Assembly (NCBI GenBank): GCA_018826905.1
Contig: JAHJYC010000002.1
Coordinates: 14,786-78,785 of the forward strand
Direction: 5' to 3'
DNA from: Patescibacteria group bacterium
Lineage (GTDB): Bacteria; Patescibacteriota; Minisyncoccia; Phycocordibacterales; Phycocordibacteraceae
DNA length: 64,000 nt
Part shown: one piece after another, positions 1,242 to 41,575 of the stretch
How the letters are laid out: every line of letters begins with the position of its first letter
How positions within the stretch are numbered: the stretch's first letter is position 1
Made by a program: the position numbers and the translations under genes
Notes under the pieces: model-generated
What the model saw: the letters and a program-made list of their open reading frames with translations, nothing else
What the model was told of the DNA's origin: nothing
Database searches by the model: none

Positions 1242-1919
1242 TTGACAAGCCTTGTCAAGTCTGCTACTATGGCCCTGTTAGGCCGTCCTTCGGGTCGGCT
1301 TTCATTTATGCCAGTAATTGCAGTAGTAGCCCTTATGGGCTTCTTGTTTTTACCGGGTAGCGCAGGCGCGCCGGCACATGCAGAGACGATTTCTGCGCCG
1401 GTAGTTGCTAGCGGGGAGGCTGAAGAGCCTTCTAAACGCCTGGCAACCTCTCTGGAGGTTGCCCAGACCTACACGGTAAGTATGACCGCTTATAATGCCG
1501 TCCCGGCGCAAACGGATGCCAACCCATTCGTGACCGCCAGCGGCTTAGCCTCTAACCCAGAGGTAGTGGTTGCTCGTTCACGCGACATGGCTGCCGAACT
1601 TCCGTTCGGTACAGTGATTCTCCTAGAACGCTCAGCGAAGGACACTCCTTCGTGTAGGTTCACTGAAGTTGAACATCTTATTGGATACCGTGTTGTTGCA
1701 GATACTATGCACCAACGATGGGTACACAAGATTGATGTGTTGTTCCCTACGCACGATACTGTCTCAGTAAACGGACGTGAGGTGAACCCTGCAATCGCAC
1801 TTGGTGTGTGTGGTCAGGTAACAGCAACAGTAGTCGGACGCCTTGATCTTAAGGATGTTCCTGCAACTCAAGCAGAACTTGCTGCTATGTTCAGCGCTCC
1901 TTCACTTGCTCTAAGATAA
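1242..1919 (+). CDS. Secreted 3D-domain (MltA/YuiC-like) cell-wall-binding protein
   Basis: N-terminal hydrophobic signal/anchor (alternative start at 1308, MPVIAVVALMGFLF), then TAYNAVPAQTDANPFVTASG and downstream D-rich segments typical of 3D domains. Confidence 0.55.
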   Translation: MTSLVKSATMALLGRPSGRLSFMPVIAVVALMGFLFLPGSAGAPAHAETISAPVVASGEAEEPSKRLATSLEVAQTYTVSMTAYNAVPAQTDANPFVTASGLASNPEVVVARSRDMAAELPFGTVILLERSAKDTPSCRFTEVEHLIGYRVVADTMHQRWVHKIDVLFPTHDTVSVNGREVNPAIALGVCGQVTATVVGRLDLKDVPATQAELAAMFSAPSLALR

Positions 1920-2006
1920 AATAGAATTTCTCCACAGTTTTCATGAAGACCCGCACTCCTGTAAGGACGCGGGTCTTCGTACGTTTGTTATAGTAGCTAC
2001 ATACAT

Positions 2007-3263
2007 ATGAACAGAAACACTCTTATCTCTGCGACACTCCTTGCTGTATTTGCATCAAGTACTGTGTTGCCAGCGACAACACTCGCCGCAACAGCAAAGA
2101 AGGCAAGCACTACGCCACTTGAAATCTCTGGATGGATTCCCTACTGGAGAACAGAGGCAGGCACAAAAGATGCGAAAGCACATCTCTCTCAGTTGACGGA
2201 GGTTAATCCGTTTGGCTACACAGTTAAACTAGACGGCTCCTTACACGACGCCATGAGGATCGGAGGAAGCGACTGGAAGAGTCTTATAAAAGAGGCAAAG
2301 AAGAAAAGGGTACGTGTAGTACCTACAATTATGTGGAGCGACACTAACTCAATCCACTCAATACTTTCAGACCCCAAGAAGCGTGCCACTCACGTTGCTG
2401 GCATTGTGAAGATGGTCAAAGACAACAACTTTGATGGAGTTGATATTGACTACGAGGGCAAGCTTGCAGAGACTCGCCCCTACTACACTCTTTTCCTAAA
2501 GGAGCTTTCTGAAGAGCTGAGTAAGAAGAAGGCTAACAAGTGGCTTATGTGTACCATTGAGGCACGTATGCCGCTGGAATCTCGCTACGTAGGTACACCA
2601 CCTCCAGGTATTGAGTATGCGAATGATCTCCCAGAGATAAACAAGTACTGCGATCGCGTGCGCATTATGACCTATGATCAGCAAACAGCAGATGTTCGCC
2701 TTAACAAAGAAGCGAGAGCTGCAGGAGAATTCTATGCACCGGTAGCAGACAAGAAGTGGGTAGAGTGGGTTATTGAGTACATGGCTAAGGATATAGATAA
2801 GAAAAAGATGGTCATTGGTATAGCAACCTATGGCTATATCTACCAGCTCATGCCACACACGGATGGTTCAGGATACACCTATACAAAGCTGGAAGCTTTT
2901 AACCCGGGCTACGCTGTTGAACTTGCGAAGCAATACGGCATAACGCCAACAAGAAACCGTGCAGGAGAACTTTCTTTCACCTACGTGCCAAAGGAACAAA
3001 CAGCATTGCTTCCAACGCAAAGCGCACTCGCTGCACTCGCTCCTCGTGGAACAACGTCAGCAAACCTTGCGGCAGCAGGTGCAATCGCTCTAGCTAAATC
3101 AAAGGCAAGACAAGCGCCAGTACAGATGCTGTGGTGGAGTGATGCCTCCGCTATTGGAGACAAAGTAGATCTAGCACGAAAGCTCGGTGTGAAAGGAGTA
3201 GCCGTCTTTAAGATTGACGGAGGCTCTGATCCTAAGATGTGGGACGTTTTAAAGAAGAAATAG
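2007..3263 (+). CDS. Glycoside hydrolase family 18-like (chitinase/peptidoglycan hydrolase-like) secreted protein
   Basis: Signal peptide; GH18 catalytic motif FDGVDIDYEG (DGxDxDxE); length 418 aa. Confidence 0.75.
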   Translation: MNRNTLISATLLAVFASSTVLPATTLAATAKKASTTPLEISGWIPYWRTEAGTKDAKAHLSQLTEVNPFGYTVKLDGSLHDAMRIGGSDWKSLIKEAKKKRVRVVPTIMWSDTNSIHSILSDPKKRATHVAGIVKMVKDNNFDGVDIDYEGKLAETRPYYTLFLKELSEELSKKKANKWLMCTIEARMPLESRYVGTPPPGIEYANDLPEINKYCDRVRIMTYDQQTADVRLNKEARAAGEFYAPVADKKWVEWVIEYMAKDIDKKKMVIGIATYGYIYQLMPHTDGSGYTYTKLEAFNPGYAVELAKQYGITPTRNRAGELSFTYVPKEQTALLPTQSALAALAPRGTTSANLAAAGAIALAKSKARQAPVQMLWWSDASAIGDKVDLARKLGVKGVAVFKIDGGSDPKMWDVLKKK

Positions 3264-3271
3264 TGTAAAAG

Positions 3272-3300
3272 AAAAGACCCGCGAGAGCGGGTCTTTTCTT
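3272..3300. terminator. Bidirectional rho-independent terminator
   Basis: Hairpin agacccgc-gaga-gcgggtct flanked by A-run and T-run, between convergent genes. Confidence 0.7.
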
Positions 3301-3637
3301 AGTTGCCCTCAATATTTTCTTCTTTGAAAGAATCAATGAGATCTAAATAGGCAACAAACACAGCAGGGTTGGTTCGCCACATGGCTTCAGTACTGTTGTT
3401 GATTGCTTGTATGGCGTGGCCCGGCGCATGACTAGATACAAGCATCTTTGCCTCCTTTATAGACTGATCGTTCAAAAGAGACATATCACCTGAGCGGGCA
3501 ATCTCGTCTATGGTGTTTCGTAATGTACGCTCCTTACCCACATCAAGTAACACTGGCCCTGTCTCGTGCTTGAGGGACGTAGTATCTGGCGCTTCATTAT
3601 CATTTGCTGCCTTTGGGGGAGGTCCTTCTGTAAACAT
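3299..3637 (-). CDS. Hypothetical protein
   Basis: 112-aa ORF, hydrophilic, no recognised motif. Confidence 0.4.
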   Translation of the reverse strand: MFTEGPPPKAANDNEAPDTTSLKHETGPVLLDVGKERTLRNTIDEIARSGDMSLLNDQSIKEAKMLVSSHAPGHAIQAINNSTEAMWRTNPAVFVAYLDLIDSFKEENIEGN

Positions 3638-13333: not shown

Positions 13334-13837
13334 ATGAAACTACCTGAAAAACTATCGCACTATAAAAGCAAAAGAATGCTGTTGCTTGTGTCTGGCAAGC
13401 AGGAGATGCTGATCTACACATTGAAGGATGCAGAAATAGAAGAGAGAAAGCATTTTAGAATAGAAAACCCCACGTATTCTGATAATGAGGGACACTTTAA
13501 AGTCCGCACTGGAGGGAAGGTAATGCGCTCCGGAAGTGTGCGTGAGACTGATGATCGCGAGATTATCGTAAAGTTTAAGAATGAGATAGCAAGCAATCTT
13601 GATGAAATAAAACAAACCTTTGATGAGGTGTATATCTCAGCACCAGGAAAAACAAAGAATGAAATTCTAGAAGCGCTCCCAATAGATATAAAGGAGAAGG
13701 TAACAAAGACTATTGTAGGGAACTATTGCTCTCTTTCTCCAATTGAAATATTGGATCTGTTTTCAGAAGAGGAAGAAGATGAGATCCAAGAAGCTGAAGT
13801 ACGGAAGATTCTCAAGAAGAATAATCAGGTTACGTAG
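13334..13837 (+). CDS. Hypothetical protein adjacent to island boundary
   Basis: 167 aa, acidic C-terminus; followed by hairpin gccaatcta-agattc-tagattggc at ~13845-13868. Confidence 0.5.
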   Translation: MKLPEKLSHYKSKRMLLLVSGKQEMLIYTLKDAEIEERKHFRIENPTYSDNEGHFKVRTGGKVMRSGSVRETDDREIIVKFKNEIASNLDEIKQTFDEVYISAPGKTKNEILEALPIDIKEKVTKTIVGNYCSLSPIEILDLFSEEEEDEIQEAEVRKILKKNNQVT

Positions 13838-13930
13838 GGTTTTGCCAATCTAAGATTCTAGATTGGCATCTTAAAACTATTTAGTAGATAAAGACGAAAC
13901 CGGCGTTTTCACGTCGGTCCGTTCTACTTT

Positions 13931-13961
13931 GCTCCGCGGGCAGGGCAGTTTTCGAACCTGG
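13931..13961 (-). repeat. Degenerate copy of the 3' end (acceptor + T-arm) of tRNA-Asn: distal att-like repeat
   Basis: CTCCGCGGGCAGG + 5-nt insertion + TTCGAACCTG matches plus-strand tRNA-Asn 18876-18900; preceded by ctactttg also present in second copy. Confidence 0.6.
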
Positions 13962-14125
13962 AATTGGGCAGAAATATATCCTGATCTTGACTACACCCTT
14001 AAAGAGATTGGCGCCCCGCTGAGTATTTGAGACCCGCATAACGCTTAAATGAAGTCCGAGGATGTTACAGGCTATGCAGAGTCTGACATCGCTGATTTCG
14101 TGTGCTCGGTGCTACACTTTTCCCT

Positions 14126-16861
14126 ATGATCAGTTTGAATGAGATACGGTCCCGAGCGCGAGCATTTACGATTGAATGGAAGGAGGAGGAGCGAGAAGAT
14201 GCCGAGGCAAAGTCATTCTGGGATGAGTTTTTTAATATATTTGGTGTATCTCGTCGTCGTGTCGCTTCTTTTGAATATTTTGTGCATAAGCAAGACGGCG
14301 CACAGGGCTTCGTTGACGTTCTATGGAAGGGTGTAATGCTCGCAGAGCATAAATCCAAGGGCATGAGCCTGGACAAGGCCTATACTCAGGCAAAAGACTA
14401 TTTTCCTGGCTTGAAAGATGCTGAACTACCTCGCTATGTTGTTGTATCTGACTTTGCACGCATACGGCTATATGACCTCGAAGAAGGTACGCAAGATGAA
14501 TTTCCGTTAGATGACCTGCATAAGCATGTTGAACAATTCGGTTTTATTTCTGGATATGAAGTGCAACGTTATGAAGAGGAAGAAGCCGCCAGTATCAAAG
14601 CTGCTCAACTCATGGCTGAATTCCACAACGAGATTGCCAAAACTGGATACCAAAGGCATGATCTCGAAGTATTTTTGGTGCGCATTCTATTCTGTCTTTT
14701 TGCTGATGACACAGAAATTTTTCCACGAAATCACTTCCGTACATACATTGAACAGCGAACGAATGAAGATGGTAGTGACTTGGGAAGCAGGTTGTTAGAG
14801 TTGTTCGATATCCTTAACAGACCTGAAGACCAGCGGCAGACAAACATTGATGAACAACTAGCCGCATTCCCGTACATCAACGGAGCGGTCTTTGGTGAAA
14901 GAATTGCATCTATATCTCTCGATAGAGCTGCACGAGAAACGTTACTAAAGTGTTGTGCGTTTGATTGGTCAGCAATTTCTGCTGCAATCTTTGGGTCTCT
15001 CTTCCAGGGTGTGATGGATGATGAGGAGCGTCGCCAATTGGGAGCGCACTACACTTCAGAAATTAACATTCGTAGAGTAATTGAGCCTCTATTTCTGGAC
15101 GAGCTATACAATGAATTCGATAGAGCTAAAAGGAGCCAGCAAAGACTAGAGACATTCCATAAAAAGCTAACCAACCTGAAGTTCCTTGATCCCGCCTGCG
15201 GCTGCGGAAACTTTTTGGTGACCACTTATCGTGAACTACGTAAATTAGAGCTGCAAATTCTAAAAAGACTTCGGAAACCTAAAGAAATGAGCCTGGCTAT
15301 GTTTGGTGCAGACGAGCTGTCTAAAATTCATGTAAATCAATTCTATGGTATTGAGATTGAGGAGTTTCCAGCACTAATTGCACGTACTGCAATGTACCTT
15401 GCCGATCATCAGGCAAATCAGGAGCTTTCCAAAGAGTTTGGGGTTATCTTTGCGCGCATCCCGTTGGAGGAGCCTGCGACCATAATTAATGATAATGCTC
15501 TTACTGTTGATTGGTCAGAAATAGTTAGTCCAAAGAACCTCAGTTACATAATCGGCAACCCTCCTTTCTATGGCGCAAGATTCATGAACAAAGCGCAAAA
15601 AGCAGACTTAACTGCAGTCTTTCCAAAGGGAATGAAGAAGGTTGGCGATCTAGATTTTGTTACAGGATGGTATGCAAAGGCCTCAGAATACATCCAAGGT
15701 ACCCAAATTGGAGTAGGTCTAGTGTCAACCAACTCAATTACCCAGGGTGAACAGGTTGCAACCCTTTGGGGCTATCTTACCGAGAAGTTTGACATACATA
15801 TCAATTTTGCTCACCGAACCTTCAAATGGACGAATGACGCTAAAGGGAAAGCGGCCGTACATTGTGTGGTGATTGGATTCAGTTGCGTAAATGCTGAGAA
15901 GAAATACCTTTATGAATATCCATCAATAAGCGGCGACCCTGTCGAAAAAGAAGTCGAGACAATAAATGCATATCTAGTAAATGCAGCACAAGTGCTGGTT
16001 ACTGGTAGAAGGAAGCCTCTTTGCGACGCGCCTTTGATGGCCATGGGCAACCAGCCTATTGATGAGGGTAACTATATTTTTACAACTAAAGAAAAAGATG
16101 AATTTCTTGCCAAGGAACCTGGAGCAGAAAAATTCTTTTATAAATGGCTGAGCTCCTACGAGTTTATTAATGGTTATGAAAAATGGTGTTTATACCTAGG
16201 TAAAGCCGATCCAAGCGAATTAAGACAGTTGCCATTTGTATTAGAAAGAATTGAAAATGTAAGGAACAGTAGGTTACAAAGCAAAAGAGAGGCGACACTG
16301 AAACTGGCTTCTACACCAACCAAATTTCAGACAGAAAACATTCCTACAGAATCGTATATGGTTATCCCTGAAGTGTCTTCGGAGAATAGGCGCTACATAC
16401 CAATGTCCATGTTGCCACCTAGTACTCTTGTGAATAACAAGTTGCGTATTATCAGGGATGCTTCCTTATTCCACTTCGGAGTGCTTACTTCAGAAATGCA
16501 TATGGCTTGGACGCGGGCGGTAACAGGAAGATTGAAGAGCGACTTTCAGTACTCAATATTTATTGTTTACAATAATTTTCCATGGCCTCCTCGCACAGAG
16601 TTAGGTCATCTCTATGAGCAGGCAAGGATGAGAATTGAGGCTGCTGCTCAAGAGGTGCTGGATGCGCGCAGCTTGTTCCCAAGTTCATCACTCGCCGACC
16701 TATACGATTCAAATACAATGCCACCTGAACTTACAAAGGCTCATGACAGGTTGAATCGAGCTGTTGATGCCGCTTATGGATTCAATTCTAGAAAAAGCGA
16801 ACCAGAGAGATTGGAATTCCTTTTTGATCTATATACGAAGTACCTTACTGACAGCTCTTAG
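14126..16861 (+). CDS. MmeI-family Type IIL restriction-modification enzyme (fused PD-(D/E)XK endonuclease + gamma-class N6-adenine methyltransferase + TRD)
   Basis: Collinear similarity to MmeI recalled from memory: N-terminal D-X9-E-X-K (FVDVLWKGVMLAEHKSKG); LVRILFCLFADDTEIF; AFPYINGAVF; SAM motif I FLDPACGCGNFL; motif IV IIGNPPFYG; C-terminal TRD. Start chosen at MISLNEIR (14126) by alignment to MmeI N-terminus; ORF opens at 14102. Confidence 0.9.
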   Translation: MISLNEIRSRARAFTIEWKEEEREDAEAKSFWDEFFNIFGVSRRRVASFEYFVHKQDGAQGFVDVLWKGVMLAEHKSKGMSLDKAYTQAKDYFPGLKDAELPRYVVVSDFARIRLYDLEEGTQDEFPLDDLHKHVEQFGFISGYEVQRYEEEEAASIKAAQLMAEFHNEIAKTGYQRHDLEVFLVRILFCLFADDTEIFPRNHFRTYIEQRTNEDGSDLGSRLLELFDILNRPEDQRQTNIDEQLAAFPYINGAVFGERIASISLDRAARETLLKCCAFDWSAISAAIFGSLFQGVMDDEERRQLGAHYTSEINIRRVIEPLFLDELYNEFDRAKRSQQRLETFHKKLTNLKFLDPACGCGNFLVTTYRELRKLELQILKRLRKPKEMSLAMFGADELSKIHVNQFYGIEIEEFPALIARTAMYLADHQANQELSKEFGVIFARIPLEEPATIINDNALTVDWSEIVSPKNLSYIIGNPPFYGARFMNKAQKADLTAVFPKGMKKVGDLDFVTGWYAKASEYIQGTQIGVGLVSTNSITQGEQVATLWGYLTEKFDIHINFAHRTFKWTNDAKGKAAVHCVVIGFSCVNAEKKYLYEYPSISGDPVEKEVETINAYLVNAAQVLVTGRRKPLCDAPLMAMGNQPIDEGNYIFTTKEKDEFLAKEPGAEKFFYKWLSSYEFINGYEKWCLYLGKADPSELRQLPFVLERIENVRNSRLQSKREATLKLASTPTKFQTENIPTESYMVIPEVSSENRRYIPMSMLPPSTLVNNKLRIIRDASLFHFGVLTSEMHMAWTRAVTGRLKSDFQYSIFIVYNNFPWPPRTELGHLYEQARMRIEAAAQEVLDARSLFPSSSLADLYDSNTMPPELTKAHDRLNRAVDAAYGFNSRKSEPERLEFLFDLYTKYLTDSS

Positions 16862-16996
16862 GGACTGGCCGAGACCAACATAGCGTTACAAGAGAAGGTG
16901 TCTTTGATTCGTAAGATGTCCTCCGCTCAATGCAAGTTCGAACCATAGAAATCTTTGCAAACAAAGGGCAAGAGACGGCTTCCGCCGCCTCTTGCC

Positions 16997-17030
16997 CTAC
17001 TTTGCTCCGCGGATGGGACGTGTTTGGAAC
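16997..17030 (-). repeat. Second, more degenerate tRNA-Asn 3'-end-like repeat between the two islets
   Basis: ctactttgCTCCGCGGatgggacgtgTTTGGAACtc: shares exact 16-mer ctactttgctccgcgg with the 13923-13938 copy; nearby 16932-16948 gcaagttcgaaccatag is T-loop-like. Confidence 0.45.
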
Positions 17031-17085
17031 TCTAGATTGGAGAAAATCAATAGTGATCTTGGCTTTTATAAGCCATTCTTTGGTC

Positions 17086-17796
17086 CTATGGCTCAACCGT
17101 AAACTCTCCCTGAACAATTGGACACATCTTTTGTACTTCTTCTAGTTTTTTAATAAAGAGTGTCTTCCAGTCTTGGAATATCGGCTTAATGATTTCCTCC
17201 CATTCAAAAATAGATATTACAGGTAATTGTGATACGTGTGGCGAAAACCCGCTGAAGAAATTATCTCCGAGAGTTACTTTTGTAGGTCCTGGGAAAAGAT
17301 TTAGAATTGATCTAACTATAGTCTCCGGGTTGTCGTCTTTAAAAGAGTAAGTGTATGCGGTATGAGCAATTACCTTATTTCGGAAGGTTCGGACGGGTTT
17401 AAACCTCTTCTTGAGTGTTTTGCATGCATCATCCGTTAAGTTCACTTGTCCGGCTGATGCTTCTTTCAAAAGAGTAGACATTCGATCGTATTCAAAAATA
17501 AGAATATCCTCCATTAAACAGAGCTGATTCACATATCCCTGAGTCCTCGATCCTAGTCTAATTCCAAGTCTGTCTATATCGTCTATGTTCTCTTGAGAAT
17601 ATCCATGCTCATTTCTGCGGGATTTAACTGCCGTATGGGTCTTGTTGAAATCTTCAAGCGCCTCACCAAATAACCAATTTGTGGCATCAAAGAGTTTCTC
17701 TAAGGGATCCATAGAGATAATATTTGGAACATAGATGACGGTATTCTTTGAACCATCACGAACCTTGATCTTATATTGGTCGATTTCTCTGAACAT
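17086..17796 (-). CDS. HEPN-like (Abi-like) protein with Rx5H motif
   Basis: 236 aa; ...RTFRNKVIAHTAY... fits HEPN Rx4-6H motif (as in AbiD/F/U2-type proteins); 3 nt downstream of the Ymh-like gene (operon). Confidence 0.55.
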   Translation of the reverse strand: MFREIDQYKIKVRDGSKNTVIYVPNIISMDPLEKLFDATNWLFGEALEDFNKTHTAVKSRRNEHGYSQENIDDIDRLGIRLGSRTQGYVNQLCLMEDILIFEYDRMSTLLKEASAGQVNLTDDACKTLKKRFKPVRTFRNKVIAHTAYTYSFKDDNPETIVRSILNLFPGPTKVTLGDNFFSGFSPHVSQLPVISIFEWEEIIKPIFQDWKTLFIKKLEEVQKMCPIVQGEFTVEP

Positions 17797-17799
17797 TAT

Positions 17800-18513
17800 T
17801 TATTTGATAGATTCCACAATGCGCAGAAGTTGATTAGCAATATGGATTATATCTGCCGCTTCTTTAGGGTCTTCAAATGTAACGTCGCGGTGGCTTGAAG
17901 GATTTTTGTACGTTCCGATTGCCCCTGAAAAAAGATCCATCCGAGCCTGCTGTTCACCGGGATGAGATAACCTATCAACGAGTGGGGCTGAGGGAGGGCC
18001 AAATGCCTTTTTCATTAGATCAACCCCAATCTCCTTATCCGAAAGACCTGACTTTGCTCGCACACGCACCTCAACCTCTTTAAATGCTTGGAAGACAGCA
18101 GTGTCGTAGTCGCCACTTATAAAGGATTGTTTTACCTTTCTTACAAGTATTGGGTCCAAGCCCTCGGACGGAAGAAGGTAGCCTTTCTTGTAGGTCTCAA
18201 AATCTTCGGACTCAAGTACTTTCTTACCTCGCGGAGTTATAAAAGCCCATTCGCCTCCTGCGCCTGGTTGCGGAGCTACGAAAAGCTCCTTCTCAAGCCA
18301 CATCCATGCCATCGCAAAACGTTCCATTATTCGGTCTCTGTTACCGCCTGACCAACTTATGAAATCGGAGTCCGTACCAAGCAGGAAGTTGTAGCGATTC
18401 AGTTGACCGCGCCCTGCCTGACTTAAATGTTTTAAGACTAGTGGCCCAAGATCTTCCGGTTCCATATCAATAACGACTTCCGGGAGTGGAAAAGTCTCTG
18501 AGTAGTGAGCCAT
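17800..18513 (-). CDS. Hypoth_Ymh / TIGR02391-like protein (HEPN superfamily, RM/Abi-associated)
   Basis: 237 aa; C-terminal GAIGTYKNPSSHRDVTFEDPKEAADIIHIANQLL resembles the conserved C-terminal block of the Ymh family. Confidence 0.5.
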   Translation of the reverse strand: MAHYSETFPLPEVVIDMEPEDLGPLVLKHLSQAGRGQLNRYNFLLGTDSDFISWSGGNRDRIMERFAMAWMWLEKELFVAPQPGAGGEWAFITPRGKKVLESEDFETYKKGYLLPSEGLDPILVRKVKQSFISGDYDTAVFQAFKEVEVRVRAKSGLSDKEIGVDLMKKAFGPPSAPLVDRLSHPGEQQARMDLFSGAIGTYKNPSSHRDVTFEDPKEAADIIHIANQLLRIVESIK

Positions 18514-18875
18514 GATTGAATAGTACGTCGGTGTAAACTAAAGTAAAGTGATACGACGCAAAATGAGATAGTTGAATTCTCTACAGGTGAATTACTAAGG
18601 ATGTCTATGACAGAAAATTGAAGGAAAAGCAGTACGACATAAACATTCAGATTGAGGACCATACCCAGGCAGACGAAACCTATTACGTGATCGCATCTGC
18701 AGTGTTTAATCTGGCAAAGAACGCTTTCAATCTATTTGAAAGTTCGGAAGTGCCAGAGAAACGAGCACCTCTGAATTACCTACTTCAGAACTACATTGTA
18801 AACAGAAAAACGCCAGCGTTTAGCTTGCGTTCTCCGTTCGACACTATCCTTTCTGTATCTACTCAACCTATTGAG

Positions 18876-18947
18876 CTCCGCGGGCAGGATTCGAACCTGC
18901 GACCAATCGATTAACAGTCGACCGCTCTACCGCTGAGCTACCGCGGA
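18876..18947 (-). tRNA. tRNA-Asn (anticodon GUU)
   Basis: Cloverleaf folded by hand: acceptor UCCGCGG/CCGCGGA, D-arm GCUC-AGCGGUA-GAGC, anticodon arm GUCGA-CUGUUAA-UCGAU, T-arm GCAGG-UUCGAAU-CCUGC, discriminator G; CCA not encoded. Confidence 0.9.
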
Positions 18948-41439: not shown

Positions 41440-41511
41440 GGCCTCATCGTCTAACGGTTAGGACAGATCCCTCTCACGGATCAAATCGGGGTTCGATTCC
41501 CCGTGAGGTCA
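41440..41511 (+). tRNA. tRNA-Glu (anticodon CUC)
   Basis: Acceptor GGCCUCA/UGAGGUC, D-arm GUCU-AACGGUUA-GGAC, anticodon arm GAUCC-CUCUCAC-GGAUC, T-arm CGGGG-UUCGAUU-CCCCG, discriminator A. Confidence 0.9.
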
Positions 41512-41575
41512 CAAAGTTGTTCTAGTGCAACCAGCACCCAAAAGGAGTCTCAACTGGATGTGCTAGCATATTTGT

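What the first reader, a model, noticed from the sequence alone, without database searches (positions are those of the whole stretch)
13925..18947. Integrase-less tandem defence islets inserted at the 3' end of tRNA-Asn(GUU)
An intact tRNA-Asn sits at 18876-18947 on the minus strand. Two degenerate direct copies of its 3' end lie at lower coordinates: 13931-13961 (CTCCGCGGGCAGG, a 5-nt insertion, then TTCGAACCTG) and 16997-17030 (CTCCGCGG followed by a decayed T-arm). Both copies are preceded by the identical 16-mer ctactttgctccgcgg. The bona fide tRNA reads ctattgagctccgcgg at that position, so the two copies resemble each other more than they resemble the tRNA. That is the scar pattern expected if the same element family integrated twice in tandem and duplicated the tRNA 3' end each time. 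Cargo 1 is a stand-alone MmeI-like RM enzyme; cargo 2 is a two-gene HEPN-like cassette. No integrase or excisionase ORF is present, and the 360 nt between cargo 2 and the tRNA is non-coding, so the islets look fixed or decayed.
Basis: seen in the sequence. Interest (0 to 1): 0.75.

Follow-up and report, generated by a model that had tools for sequence, protein, structure and literature searches.

The report
Decayed serine-integrase defence islets at tRNA-Asn
A 4.9-kb block of two small anti-phage gene islets sits beside a tRNA-Asn gene in a Patescibacteria genome, left by two serine-integrase elements that integrated in tandem and then lost their integrase genes, which is an ordinary kind of island built by an unusual integrase family.

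Summary
tRNA-Asn(GTT) lies at 18875-18947 (-). Two tRNA-3'-like repeats sit at 13932 and 17005, each preceded by an identical 16-mer (0 expected by chance). The cargo is an MmeI-type RM enzyme plus two HEPN-like genes.

A distant relative (L021) has an empty site: h167, 171 nt, tRNA-Asn, HPF, Fmt. The window therefore carries 4.9 kb of low-GC inserted DNA.

The locus is not integrase-less. Positions 18591-18914 (+) are the last ~105 codons of a large serine recombinase (LSR) gene that reads antisense into the tRNA. Full-length relatives sit at tRNA-Asn in many Patescibacteria, with RM or other defence cargo and an attL site 7-10 kb away.

The two "tRNA copies" are not duplicated tRNA ends. They are the elements' own attP P' half-sites. 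A profile built from unrelated loci picks them as the top two hits in 64 kb. Their 5-nt "insertion" is the canonical 5-bp attP/attB spacing shift of serine integrases.

Verdict: two tandem, decayed LSR defence elements. This is a new variant of a known kind.

One puzzle remains. Independent truncations of this integrase in many genomes begin at the same codon.

The parts
13838..13931 (.). Spacer between the 167-aa flank gene and the island. It is the B arm of the outer attL: the terminator hairpin of the 167-aa gene, then a tRNA-trailer-like segment (A-rich tract, imperfect hairpin about 13895-13926, CTACTTTG).
   Evidence: About 80% identical to the trailer of an intact tRNA-Asn in L012. In the empty-site relative L021 the equivalent spacer is 171 nt.
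13932..13975 (+). Copy 1: P' half-site of the distal element E1 (the attL junction). Sequence CTCCGCGGGCAGG + GCAGT + TTTCGAACCTGGAATTGG.
   Evidence: Second-best hit in the window to the P' profile, full length, E = 0.038. Gapped match to the tRNA 3' end with z of about 8. Translates to ..LRGQGSFRTWNW, like the free-form integrase tails.
14102..16861 (+). Cargo of E1: MmeI-like Type IIG/IIL restriction-modification enzyme. 919 aa from the GTG start; 911 aa from the ATG at 14126, as annotated.
   Evidence: Pfam MmeI_N, MmeI_hel, MmeI_Mtase, MmeI_TRD and MmeI_C are all far above threshold. PADLOC REase_MTase_IIG scores 1191 bits. D-x9-E-x-K, FLDPACGCGNF and NPPF are visible in the translation.
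16862..17004 (.). Remnant of the P arm of E1, meaning the last codons of a second, L010-type serine integrase. It contains a strong minus-strand terminator hairpin at 16965-16998 and ends in CTACTTTG.
   Evidence: tblastn places L010 integrase residues 498-520 on 16951-17019 (57% identity, E = 0.01). Aligns with the L010 and L012 tRNA trailers. The terminator scan finds 15 pairs plus a T tract.
17005..17047 (+). Copy 2: P' half-site of the proximal element E2, forming a hybrid P(E1)-O-P'(E2) junction. Sequence CTCCGCGGATGGGACGTGTTTGGAACTCTAGATTGG.
   Evidence: Best hit in the 64-kb window to the P' profile built from 18 other loci, E = 3.3e-6. Translates to ..LRGWDVFGTLDWRKSI, matching free-form tails such as ..LDTFGTVDWQEIK in L050.
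17086..17796 (-). Cargo of E2: 236-aa AbiU2-like (HEPN-like) protein.
   Evidence: Sub-threshold HEPN_AbiU2 hit, also seen in 14 of 21 homologs. R139-x5-H145 is invariant. Found alone beside other RM or defence genes elsewhere.
17800..18513 (-). Cargo of E2: 237-aa protein with a C-terminal Hypoth_Ymh/TIGR02391 (HEPN-type) domain.
   Evidence: Pfam PF09509, 89 bits against a cut-off of 25. NCBIfam TIGR02391, 69 bits against a cut-off of 39. Weak PADLOC hits to PD-Lambda-3_B and Aga_HEPN.
18591..18914 (+). Pseudogene remnant of the E2 integrase: the last ~105 codons of a large serine recombinase, from the coiled-coil tip to the stop. It forms the P arm of attR, reads antisense into the tRNA, and carries the tRNA's terminator in antisense at about 18800-18830. 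A stop codon lies just upstream and there is a 9-nt in-frame deletion.
   Evidence: tblastn to phage-contig LSRs, E = 3e-9. Aligned to the C-termini of full-length LSRs. 71% identical to the family consensus. The nearest full-length relative is L025. No N-terminal part is found anywhere in the window.
18875..18947 (-). Intact tRNA-Asn(GTT). It is the B' half of the original attB. Crossover is inferred within its last ~6 nt.
   Evidence: ARAGORN. Free and integrated integrase genes are identical through ..GGCTCCCC and then diverge. The conserved part of the attL sites begins at CTCC.

Best explanation
The region 13932-18875 is a 4.9-kb composite genomic island. It was built by two successive site-specific integrations of small elements that encode a large serine recombinase (LSR). 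Both integrated at the 3' terminus of tRNA-Asn in a Paceibacterota (Patescibacteria) chromosome.

Each element carried a defence cargo. Its integrase gene pointed toward the tRNA, so that the last codons of the integrase form the P arm of attP.

Integration joins the P arm to the intact tRNA (attR). It leaves the element's other half-site (P') at the far end (attL). P' is a tRNA-3'-end look-alike whose TTCGAACC motif lies 5 bp further from the crossover than in the tRNA.

- Copy 1 (13932) is the outer attL: native trailer joined to P' of element E1, which carries the MmeI-type RM enzyme.
- Copy 2 (17005) is the hybrid junction between the P-arm remnant of E1 and P' of element E2, which carries the two HEPN-like genes.
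- The tRNA side is the attR of E2.

Both integrase genes were later deleted. E1 was cut down to a few dozen codons and E2 to its last ~105 codons, so the islets are now fixed.

Shown: the inserted nature of the block, the LSR remnant, the identity of the copies as P'-type sites, the architecture of intact relatives, and the defence cargo.

Inferred: the order of integration, the assignment of E1's integrase to the L010 type, the exact crossover position, and the loss of mobility.
For: Empty site. L021 has the h167 homolog (60% identity), then 171 nt, then tRNA-Asn(-), HPF, Fmt, Def and the h603-like gene. The window has 5037 nt in the same interval. Island GC is 43.2% against 48.0%, lower than any non-overlapping window of the same size.

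Integrase remnant. tblastn gives E = 3e-9 to 522-533-aa ORFs with Resolvase, Recombinase and Zn_ribbon_recom domains, whose 3' ends overlap antisense tRNAs.

Sister species. UBA6241 (L010) has an intact 527-aa LSR ending ..LRGQDSNLRPID* at the same tRNA-Asn, next to grx-HPF-Fmt. Its cargo is a Septu-like AAA_15 + HNH pair and a Dam methylase.

Related loci. A metagenome scan found 53 loci with N-terminal LSR homology directly upstream (26 ORFs extracted: 487-541 aa). In seven, a P' site lies 7-10 kb upstream in the same orientation; five end at a called tRNA-Asn (L030, L040, L048, L058, L096, L098, L028). Cargo is Type III RM, a fused RM enzyme or TPR-PIN.

Profile test. A P' profile from 18 other loci hits copy 2 (E = 3.3e-6) and copy 1 (E = 0.038) as the two best hits in the window. 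The real tRNA scores only E = 19. 61 of 64 P' hits in 810 kb lie on the integrase strand, and arrays of several P' sites are common.

Spacing. The 5-bp shift of the distal motif between P' and the tRNA equals the attP/attB ZD-motif shift described for serine integrases (PMC3783163).

Crossover. Free and integrated forms diverge right after CTCCCC, and the conserved part of attL starts at CTCC.

Reconstruction. Joining the window's P arm to copy 2 gives ..TQPIELRGWDVFGTLDWRKS, which fits the family's free-form tail.
Against: - Canonical serine integrases do not recombine attP with attL or attR. A second integration next to the first therefore needs a B-like P arm, a different integrase specificity, or another route. 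This was not resolved.
- Copy 1's profile hit is marginal (E = 0.038).
- The L010-type assignment of the sequence left of copy 2 rests on a 23-aa match (E = 0.01).
- That same sequence is also a good terminator for the HEPN genes, and it could be native trailer.
- The empty-site relative is distant (Fmt 35% identical).
- No recombination was observed. No excised or empty variants were found among the exact-match contigs.
Confidence: 0.75

Rival explanations
1. The islets are not decayed autonomous elements. They are integrase-less cassettes that keep only a cis-acting att module (a P' site plus a P arm of 30-300 nt). An LSR encoded elsewhere inserts them in trans, giving an integron-like cassette array at tRNA-Asn.
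For: Arrays of 2-7 P' sites separated by 0.5-3 kb, without integrase genes between them, occur in several loci (L057, L103, L075, L092, L073). Twenty-three loci (about 18 distinct) carry only the C-terminal module, and most of these begin at one codon. A 22-mer at that boundary is conserved even at synonymous sites.
Against: The truncated copies are polyphyletic, each nearest to a full-length gene. They therefore arise repeatedly from autonomous elements rather than forming a cassette lineage. No circular or free cassette was seen. No LSR is present in the 64-kb window. The window copy carries a premature stop and an in-frame deletion, as expected for decay.
Confidence: 0.15
2. This is a classical tRNA island made by a tyrosine integrase. 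The two copies are direct repeats of the tRNA 3' end, duplicated at each integration and since mutated, including a shared 5-nt insertion.
For: It sits at the 3' end of a tRNA. Copy 1 shares 13 + 10 nt with the tRNA. This is the commonest architecture for tRNA-linked islands.
Against: There is no tyrosine recombinase or remnant of one. The only recombinase remnant is of the serine type. The copies match an LSR P' profile better than the real tRNA does. The +5 spacing is shared with dozens of P' sites in unrelated loci. Free and integrated forms show no block of identity inside the tRNA beyond about 6 nt.
Confidence: 0.04
3. The copies are leftovers of duplicated tRNA-Asn genes (pseudo-tRNAs with their terminators). 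The cargo arrived by unrelated events such as homologous recombination in the flanks.
For: Each copy is preceded by a trailer or terminator-like hairpin similar to the trailers of intact tRNA-Asn genes (L012, L010).
Against: Only the 3' 20-25 nt are tRNA-like. The sequence to the right matches element P' tails, not tRNA body. The same site type bounds intact LSR elements elsewhere.
Confidence: 0.04

Closest known systems
Large serine integrase systems (phiC31, Bxb1, A118/LI integrase) and their attP/attB/attL/attR logic
   Same: The recombinase has Resolvase, Recombinase and zinc-ribbon domains in full-length relatives. The att sites are short. The distal (ZD) motif lies 5 bp further from the centre in attP half-sites than in attB half-sites (PMC3783163). 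There is no target duplication.
   Different: The target is the 3' terminus of a tRNA gene, with the T-loop sequence TTCGAACC as the likely ZD motif. attP lies inside the 3' end of the integrase ORF, so the protein has different C-terminal tails in the free and integrated states. The hosts are Patescibacteria. The elements are small (7-10 kb) RM or defence carriers, not phages. None of this was tested biochemically.
Tycheposons and tRNA-linked island accretion in Prochlorococcus (bioRxiv 10.1101/2020.12.28.424599)
   Same: Successive integrations at one tRNA push older elements inward. They leave partial tRNA-like repeats and fragmented integrases, and the cargo includes defence genes.
   Different: About 97% of tycheposons use tyrosine recombinases, and their repeats are true partial tRNAs. 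Here the recombinase is an LSR and the repeats are P' half-site mimics.
SCCmec-type elements (CcrA/CcrB serine recombinases)
   Same: NCBIfam's best (sub-threshold) matches for a full-length family member are CcrB, CcrC and XisF. From my own knowledge, untested here: SCC elements integrate at the 3' end of a conserved gene (rlmH/orfX), and tandem or composite arrays and integrase-less pseudo-elements are known.
   Different: The target gene, host phylum and recombinase subfamily all differ, and there is a single recombinase gene. Scores are far below the family cut-offs (81 bits against 900).
MmeI-family Type IIG/IIL restriction-modification enzymes
   Same: All five MmeI domains are present, with the endonuclease D-x9-ExK and methyltransferase NPPF motifs in one polypeptide.
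   Different: The recognition sequence and activity are unknown. Here the enzyme is carried as the single cargo gene of a decayed LSR element.

Membership tests
Large-serine-recombinase integrative element | A recombinase gene with Resolvase catalytic, Recombinase and zinc-ribbon domains inside the element | tested here: not met
   The window holds only the last ~105 codons (18591-18914). No N-terminal homology exists anywhere in the 64 kb. The feature is met in relatives L010, L025, L030 and others. The window element is therefore a remnant, not a functional member.
Large-serine-recombinase integrative element | attL and attR junctions made of one B-type and one P-type half-site, with the distal motif 5 bp further out in P-type half-sites | tested here: met
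   The distance from CTCC to TTCGAACC is 14 nt in the tRNA (B') and 19 nt in copy 1, and the same in the P' sites of other loci. P' profile hits are at E = 3.3e-6 and 0.038. The rule comes from PMC3783163.
Large-serine-recombinase integrative element | An unoccupied attB in related genomes | tested here: met
   L021 has the h167 homolog, 171 nt, tRNA-Asn, HPF and Fmt with no island. The relative is distant.
Large-serine-recombinase integrative element | Recombination at a defined central dinucleotide, and excision to a circle | not testable with these tools
   Comparison of free, attR and attL forms narrows the crossover only to the ~6 nt CTCC(G/C)C at the tRNA 3' terminus.
MmeI-like Type IIG/IIL RM enzyme | MmeI_N (nuclease), helical spacer, gamma-class N6A methyltransferase, TRD and C-terminal domains in one chain | tested here: met
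   All five Pfam models score 84-310 bits against cut-offs of 27. The PADLOC IIG model scores 1191 bits over its full length.
MmeI-like Type IIG/IIL RM enzyme | Catalytic motifs D-x9-E-x-K and NPPF/Y, and cleavage about 20 nt from the recognition site | tested here: inconclusive
   The motifs VD-VLWKGVMLA-EHK and IIGNPPFYG are visible in the translation. That these are the MmeI catalytic positions rests on my memory of the MmeI literature. Activity cannot be tested here.
HEPN superfamily, Hypoth_Ymh/TIGR02391 | Match to the family model above the curated threshold | tested here: met
   PF09509 scores 89 bits (cut-off 25). TIGR02391 scores 69 bits (cut-off 39.45). Both matches are for the 17800-18513 protein.
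HEPN superfamily, AbiU2 | Match to HEPN_AbiU2 above threshold, and a conserved R-x4-6-H motif | tested here: inconclusive
   The hit scores 18.5 bits, below the 26.8 cut-off. 14 of 21 homologs give the same sub-threshold hit. R139-x5-H145 is invariant.
Tyrosine-integrase tRNA island (P4/SaPI/tycheposon type) | A tyrosine recombinase, and direct repeats that are true copies of the tRNA 3' segment | tested here: not met
   No such recombinase or remnant is present. The repeats fit the LSR P' profile better than the tRNA does.

The most novel reading that the evidence does not exclude
Many independent N-terminal truncations of this integrase share essentially one end point. That point is the coiled-coil-tip codons, marked by a 22-nt stretch conserved even at synonymous sites. 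Arrays of P' sites without integrases also occur.

Together these could mean that a site-specific process acts inside the integrase gene. It could be a second recombination site, or a replication or transfer nick site that produces one-ended deletions. Such a process would generate minimal, trans-mobilisable att modules. tRNA-Asn in Patescibacteria would then act as an integron-like, serine-recombinase-driven platform for collecting defence cassettes.
Probability: 0.15. Interest if true: 0.75.

Novelty: new variant of a known kind. Interest (0 to 1): 0.45.

Why it matters
- It shows how defence genes (an MmeI-type RM enzyme, HEPN proteins, Type III RM, Septu-like pairs) move into the tiny genomes of Patescibacteria. 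They arrive on 7-10-kb serine-integrase elements that target the end of tRNA-Asn and pile up in tandem.
- It supplies, from sequence alone, dozens of natural integrase/attP/attB/attL/attR sets. Their geometry follows the structural model for serine integrases, with the tRNA T-loop as the likely zinc-ribbon motif. These sets could be tested as integration tools for a phylum that has almost no genetic tools.
- For annotation, tRNA-like "scars" with a +5-nt spacing flag serine-integrase half-sites rather than decayed tRNA duplications.
- The island in this window is itself a fixed relic and is biologically ordinary.

Tried and rejected
1. A conserved domesticated small ORF. The first protein search returned only short homologs (61-172 aa), all starting at RITKDDYD. 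dN/dS was 0.06-0.16. That suggested a functional mini-protein. I rejected this because the DNA-level metagenome scan found 53 loci with N-terminal LSR homology directly upstream of the module, that is full-length or near-full-length genes of the same family. The truncated copies are also polyphyletic, each nearest to a full-length gene. The purifying selection therefore belongs to the parents, and the word-indexed search had missed the long proteins.

2. Crossover in the T-loop (TTCGAA palindrome) or in the anticodon loop. I rejected both for normal integration. Free and integrated forms diverge right after CTCCCC, and a T-loop crossover would leave a tRNA with a +5 T-arm.

3. Split integrase gene, or an element inserted into the integrase. 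No N-terminal LSR part was found within 64 kb, or upstream in ten truncated loci.

4. Tandem copies of the C-terminal module. No self-similarity was found upstream of the breakpoints, apart from weak hints in L037 and L059.

5. Searches that led nowhere:
- PHROGs and PADLOC gave nothing for the remnant.
- The viral-contig scan gave only two loci.
- Literature searches found no description of tRNA-targeting LSR elements in Patescibacteria.
- The L010 element's far end lay beyond the 10-kb flank.
- The Rep_trans-like hit in one element is weak (E = 8e-4) and absent in the others.

Full report
**1. Checking the observation**

ARAGORN places tRNA-Asn(gtt) at 18875-18947 on the minus strand.

| Position | Sequence |
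|---|---|
| 13924 | CTACTTTGCTCCGCGGGCAGG |
| 16997 | CTACTTTGCTCCGCGGATGGG |
| 18868 | CTATTGAGCTCCGCGGGCAGG |

The 16-mer CTACTTTGCTCCGCGG occurs exactly twice in the window, against 0.00 expected in shuffles.

Copy 1 gives a gapped local score of 37 against the 31-nt tRNA 3' end. The null is 18.8 +/- 2.3, with a maximum of 26. Copy 2 alone does not exceed chance against the tRNA. It aligns with copy 1 in the same register over 34 nt (76% identity), and the similarity continues to the right.

The cargo calls hold up:
- The 919-aa ORF has all five MmeI domains and matches the PADLOC IIG model over its full length.
- The 237-aa protein passes Hypoth_Ymh/TIGR02391.
- The 236-aa protein is only a sub-threshold AbiU2-type HEPN. 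It has an invariant R-x5-H motif, and 14 of 21 homologs give the same weak hit.
- Two homolog contexts lack a Ymh neighbour, so the two genes are not an obligate pair.

**2. Whose genome, and is the block inserted?**

Exact-protein look-ups place the window on contig JAHJZS010000003.1 of MAG GCA_018826145.1. The same arrangement occurs in every other contig that carries these proteins. Relatives found through the Fmt protein are Patescibacteria/Paceibacterota.

A homolog of the left-flank 167-aa gene (60% identity) lies on a JGI contig, L021. It is followed after 171 nt by tRNA-Asn(-), and then by HPF, Fmt, Def and the large membrane protein. This is the window's right flank, so L021 is an empty site. 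It is a distant relative (Fmt 35% identical).

In the window the same interval is 5037 nt. The island (13932-18875) has 43.2% GC against 48.0% for the rest. No non-overlapping window of equal size is as low.

**3. The locus is not integrase-less**

The plus-strand frame through 18591-18914 reads ITKDVYDRKLKEKQYDINIQIEDHT...TQPIELRGQDSNLRPID*.

tblastn against phage records hits two human-gut contigs (E = 3e-9). The matching ORFs there are 533 and 522 aa with Resolvase, Recombinase and Zn_ribbon_recom domains. Their 3' ends overlap tRNA-Glu and tRNA-Leu genes on the opposite strand. The window fragment aligns with their last ~105 residues.

In the sister species UBA6241 (L010; Fmt 79% identical), an intact 527-aa LSR ends ..LLRGQDSNLRPID* inside the same tRNA-Asn, next to grx-HPF-Fmt. 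It is followed by a Septu-like AAA_15 + HNH pair and a Dam methylase.

No N-terminal LSR sequence exists anywhere in the 64-kb window.

**4. A false lead, corrected**

The word-indexed protein search returned 26 homologs of the fragment. All were short and all began at RITKDDYD. The DNA homology among four loci starts sharply at ATTACTAAGGATGA, and dN/dS is 0.06-0.16. This looked like a conserved mini-gene.

The metagenome scan with the family alignment changed the picture. Of 76 usable loci, 53 have N-terminal LSR homology directly upstream of the module. The 26 ORFs I extracted are 487-541 aa. The 23 loci scored as truncated (about 18 distinct after duplicate contigs) are scattered through the tree. 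Each is nearest to a full-length gene: L027 to L030 at 4% divergence, L018 to L033 at 2%, and the window copy to L025 at 17%. The selection signature therefore comes from functional parents, and the window copy is a pseudogene remnant. It also has a stop codon at the boundary and a 9-nt in-frame deletion.

**5. What the two 'tRNA copies' are**

Full-length genes occur in two states:
- Next to a tRNA-Asn, the ORF ends ..LRG(Q)DSNLRPI(D/A)*, which is the antisense of the tRNA.
- Elsewhere it continues ..LP-x-LD-x-FRT(L/V)(D/N)W-x-x-IK.. (L043, L050, L051, L059, L060, L105 and others).

The window's copies translate in the same frame to ..LLRGQGSFRTWNWAEI (copy 1) and ..LLRGWDVFGTLDWRKSI (copy 2).

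I built an nhmmer profile from 18 such sites in other loci and searched the window. Copy 2 (17005-17044, E = 3.3e-6) and copy 1 (13932-13974, E = 0.038) were the two best hits. Both are on the plus strand and match the profile over its full length. The real tRNA scores E = 19.

The same profile marks a site 7-10 kb upstream of the integrase, in the same orientation, in seven integrated full-length elements: L030, L040, L048, L058, L096, L098 and L028. Five of these end at an ARAGORN-called tRNA-Asn (L030, L040, L048, L058, L096); in L098 and L028 the integrase tail reads as tRNA antisense at the locus edge but no tRNA was called. Of 64 hits in 810 kb, 61 lie on the integrase strand, and several loci have arrays of 2-7 sites.

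These are therefore the P' half-sites of the elements' attP, seen as attL or as junctions between tandem elements.

**6. The 5-nt 'insertion' and the crossover**

In the tRNA, TTCGAACC starts 14 nt after CTCC. In copy 1, and in P' sites generally, it starts 19 nt after.

Rutherford et al. showed for serine integrases that the zinc-ribbon (ZD) motif occupies positions 16-24 of attP half-sites. In attB half-sites it is shifted 5 bp toward the centre, to positions 11-19 (PMC3783163).

In one subfamily, free and integrated genes are identical through ..AAAAACTGGCTCCCC and then diverge. The conserved part of every attL begins at CTCC, with unrelated sequence to the left. The crossover therefore lies within the last ~6 nt of the tRNA gene.

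With the centre there, TTCGAACC falls at about positions 12-19 in the tRNA and 17-24 in P', matching the published geometry. That TTCGAACC is the ZD motif is an inference.

Two consequences follow:
- Integration does not duplicate the tRNA.
- The copies resemble each other more than they resemble the tRNA because both are P' sites.

**7. Anatomy of the window island**

| Coordinates | Feature |
|---|---|
| 13838-13931 | h167 terminator, then a trailer-like segment about 80% identical to the trailer of an intact tRNA-Asn in L012. This is the B arm. |
| 13932-13975 | P'(E1). |
| 14102-16861 | MmeI-like enzyme. |
| 16862-17004 | A-rich tract, a 15-bp hairpin (a minus-strand terminator) and CTACTTTG. 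|
| 17005-17047 | P'(E2). |
| 17086-18513 | The two HEPN-like genes. |
| 18591-18914 | Remnant of the E2 integrase, the P arm of attR. |
| 18875-18947 | tRNA-Asn. |

The 16862-17004 segment translates to ..ANKGQETASAASCPTLLRG. This resembles the L010 integrase tail ENKGENTLSGASSPVLLRG (E = 0.01). I read it as the P-arm remnant of E1, whose integrase was of the L010 type.

A junction of the form P(E1)-O-P'(E2) is what tandem integration predicts, whichever element came first.

Joining the window's P arm to copy 2 reconstructs ..TQPIELRGWDVFGTLDWRKS. This fits the family's free-form tail.

**8. What the intact elements are**

Between attL and the integrase, the relatives carry:
- Type III RM (Mod + Res) in L030 and L028, with similar ORF sizes in L048 and L058.
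- A fused HsdR_N-N6_Mtase-Methylase_S enzyme in L096.
- A TPR-PIN protein in L098.
- Transport and methyltransferase genes and a Bro-N protein in L040.
- Unannotated 370-410-aa proteins. One of them has weak Rep_trans and Phage_CRI hits.

No virion genes were seen. These are small integrative, probably replicative, elements, and most of them carry RM or other defence genes. The window's MmeI and HEPN cargo fits that pattern.

**9. Weak points**

- Canonical LSRs do not recombine attP with attL or attR. How the second element entered is therefore unexplained. Possibilities are a B-like P arm, a different specificity for the two integrase types, or integration of a pre-formed composite.
- The copy 1 profile hit and the L010-type assignment are both modest.
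- The empty-site relative is distant.
- Nothing here demonstrates recombination.

**10. An unexplained regularity**

With full-length genes as queries, homology in about 18 truncated loci starts within -5 to +1 residues of the same codon (R|ITKDDYD), the tip of the coiled coil. The exceptions start at -31, -38, -40 and -105. One copy (L073) is an internal deletion joining residue ~30 to this point through a TACT microhomology.

The upstream sequences are unrelated to one another. The 22-mer ATTACTAAGGATGACTATGACA is conserved even at synonymous positions.

Possible explanations, none tested:
- A cis-required outer limit of a larger functional attP.
- A secondary recombination site.
- A replication or transfer nick site that produces one-ended deletions.

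**11. Comparison with known systems, and verdict**

The logic is that of serine integrases (phiC31, Bxb1, A118). The island-building pattern is that of tRNA-linked accretion as described for tycheposons: successive integrations, partial tRNA-like repeats and fragmented integrases (bioRxiv 10.1101/2020.12.28.424599).

The differences are these:
- An LSR targets the 3' terminus of a tRNA.
- attP is embedded in the integrase's own 3' end.
- The scars are P' mimics rather than tRNA duplicates.
- The host is a member of the Patescibacteria.

I found no paper describing this, but the search library is incomplete.

The window's island is a fixed relic. I rate it a new variant of a known kind, of moderate interest.

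Noticed in passing
window 18585-18612; also L018 10034, L020 2232, L027 7568, L029 823, L036 1220, L059 5845, L105 10001 and others: Independent (polyphyletic) N-terminal truncations of this serine integrase in about 18 loci all begin within a few nucleotides of the same codon, the coiled-coil tip ..|ATTACTAAGGATGACTATGACA. The upstream DNA is unrelated from locus to locus. The 22-mer is conserved even at synonymous sites. The mechanism is unknown.
   Followed up: partly
L043 4268-4378, L050 2306-2395, compared with L052, L035 and window 18875-18914: The integrase ORF crosses attP. The protein ends ..LRGQDSNLRPID* (tRNA antisense) when integrated, but carries a different 25-40-residue tail (..LPMLDVFRTLNWASIKSELQF..) when free or at tandem junctions.
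   Followed up: partly
L008 (MT836653) 1741-3342 with tRNA-Glu 3279-3353; L009 (MT837677) 835-2403 with tRNA-Leu 2302-2389: Human-gut phage contigs carry related large serine recombinases whose 3' ends overlap antisense tRNA genes. The same architecture therefore exists outside Patescibacteria and at other tRNAs.
   Followed up: no
L063-L065 (tRNA-His), L087, L093 and L095 (tRNA-Gln): Members of the same integrase family abut tRNA-His or tRNA-Gln instead of tRNA-Asn, which suggests target switching among tRNA 3' ends.
   Followed up: no
L057 124-4650; L103 4419-8310; L075 3546-7013; L073 8713-10142: Arrays of 3-7 P'-type sites in direct orientation are spaced 0.5-3 kb apart, mostly with no integrase gene between them. 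This looks like a cassette array.
   Followed up: partly
L010 13240-20042; L012 7504-9857: The tRNA-Asn site in related species holds other defence cargo. L010 has a Septu-like AAA_15 + HNH pair, a 511-aa unknown protein and a Dam methylase. L012 has a Beta_protein (PF14350) gene with two unannotated neighbours and no integrase.
   Followed up: partly
L004 (starts inside the tRNA) and L007 (ends inside the MmeI gene), both from GCA_018828265.1: A second assembly of the same organism breaks its contigs at the tRNA-Asn and inside the MmeI gene. This could reflect strain heterogeneity at the island or simply a fragmented assembly.
   Followed up: no
(a point of method): The word-indexed protein search returned only short homologs of the integrase fragment. 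The DNA-level metagenome scan found 53 loci with N-terminal LSR homology directly upstream of the module, that is full-length or near-full-length genes. Conclusions drawn from an absence of long homologs in the first tool would have been wrong.
   Followed up: yes
window 13334-13837: The 167-aa flank gene gives weak, sub-threshold hits to Host_attach and baeRF_family12. It is syntenic with tRNA-Asn and HPF in distant relatives (L021, L022).
   Followed up: no
window 41440-41512: A second tRNA gene, tRNA-Glu(ctc), lies in the window. I did not check it for adjacent islands or P'-type sites beyond the profile scan, which found none.
   Followed up: no
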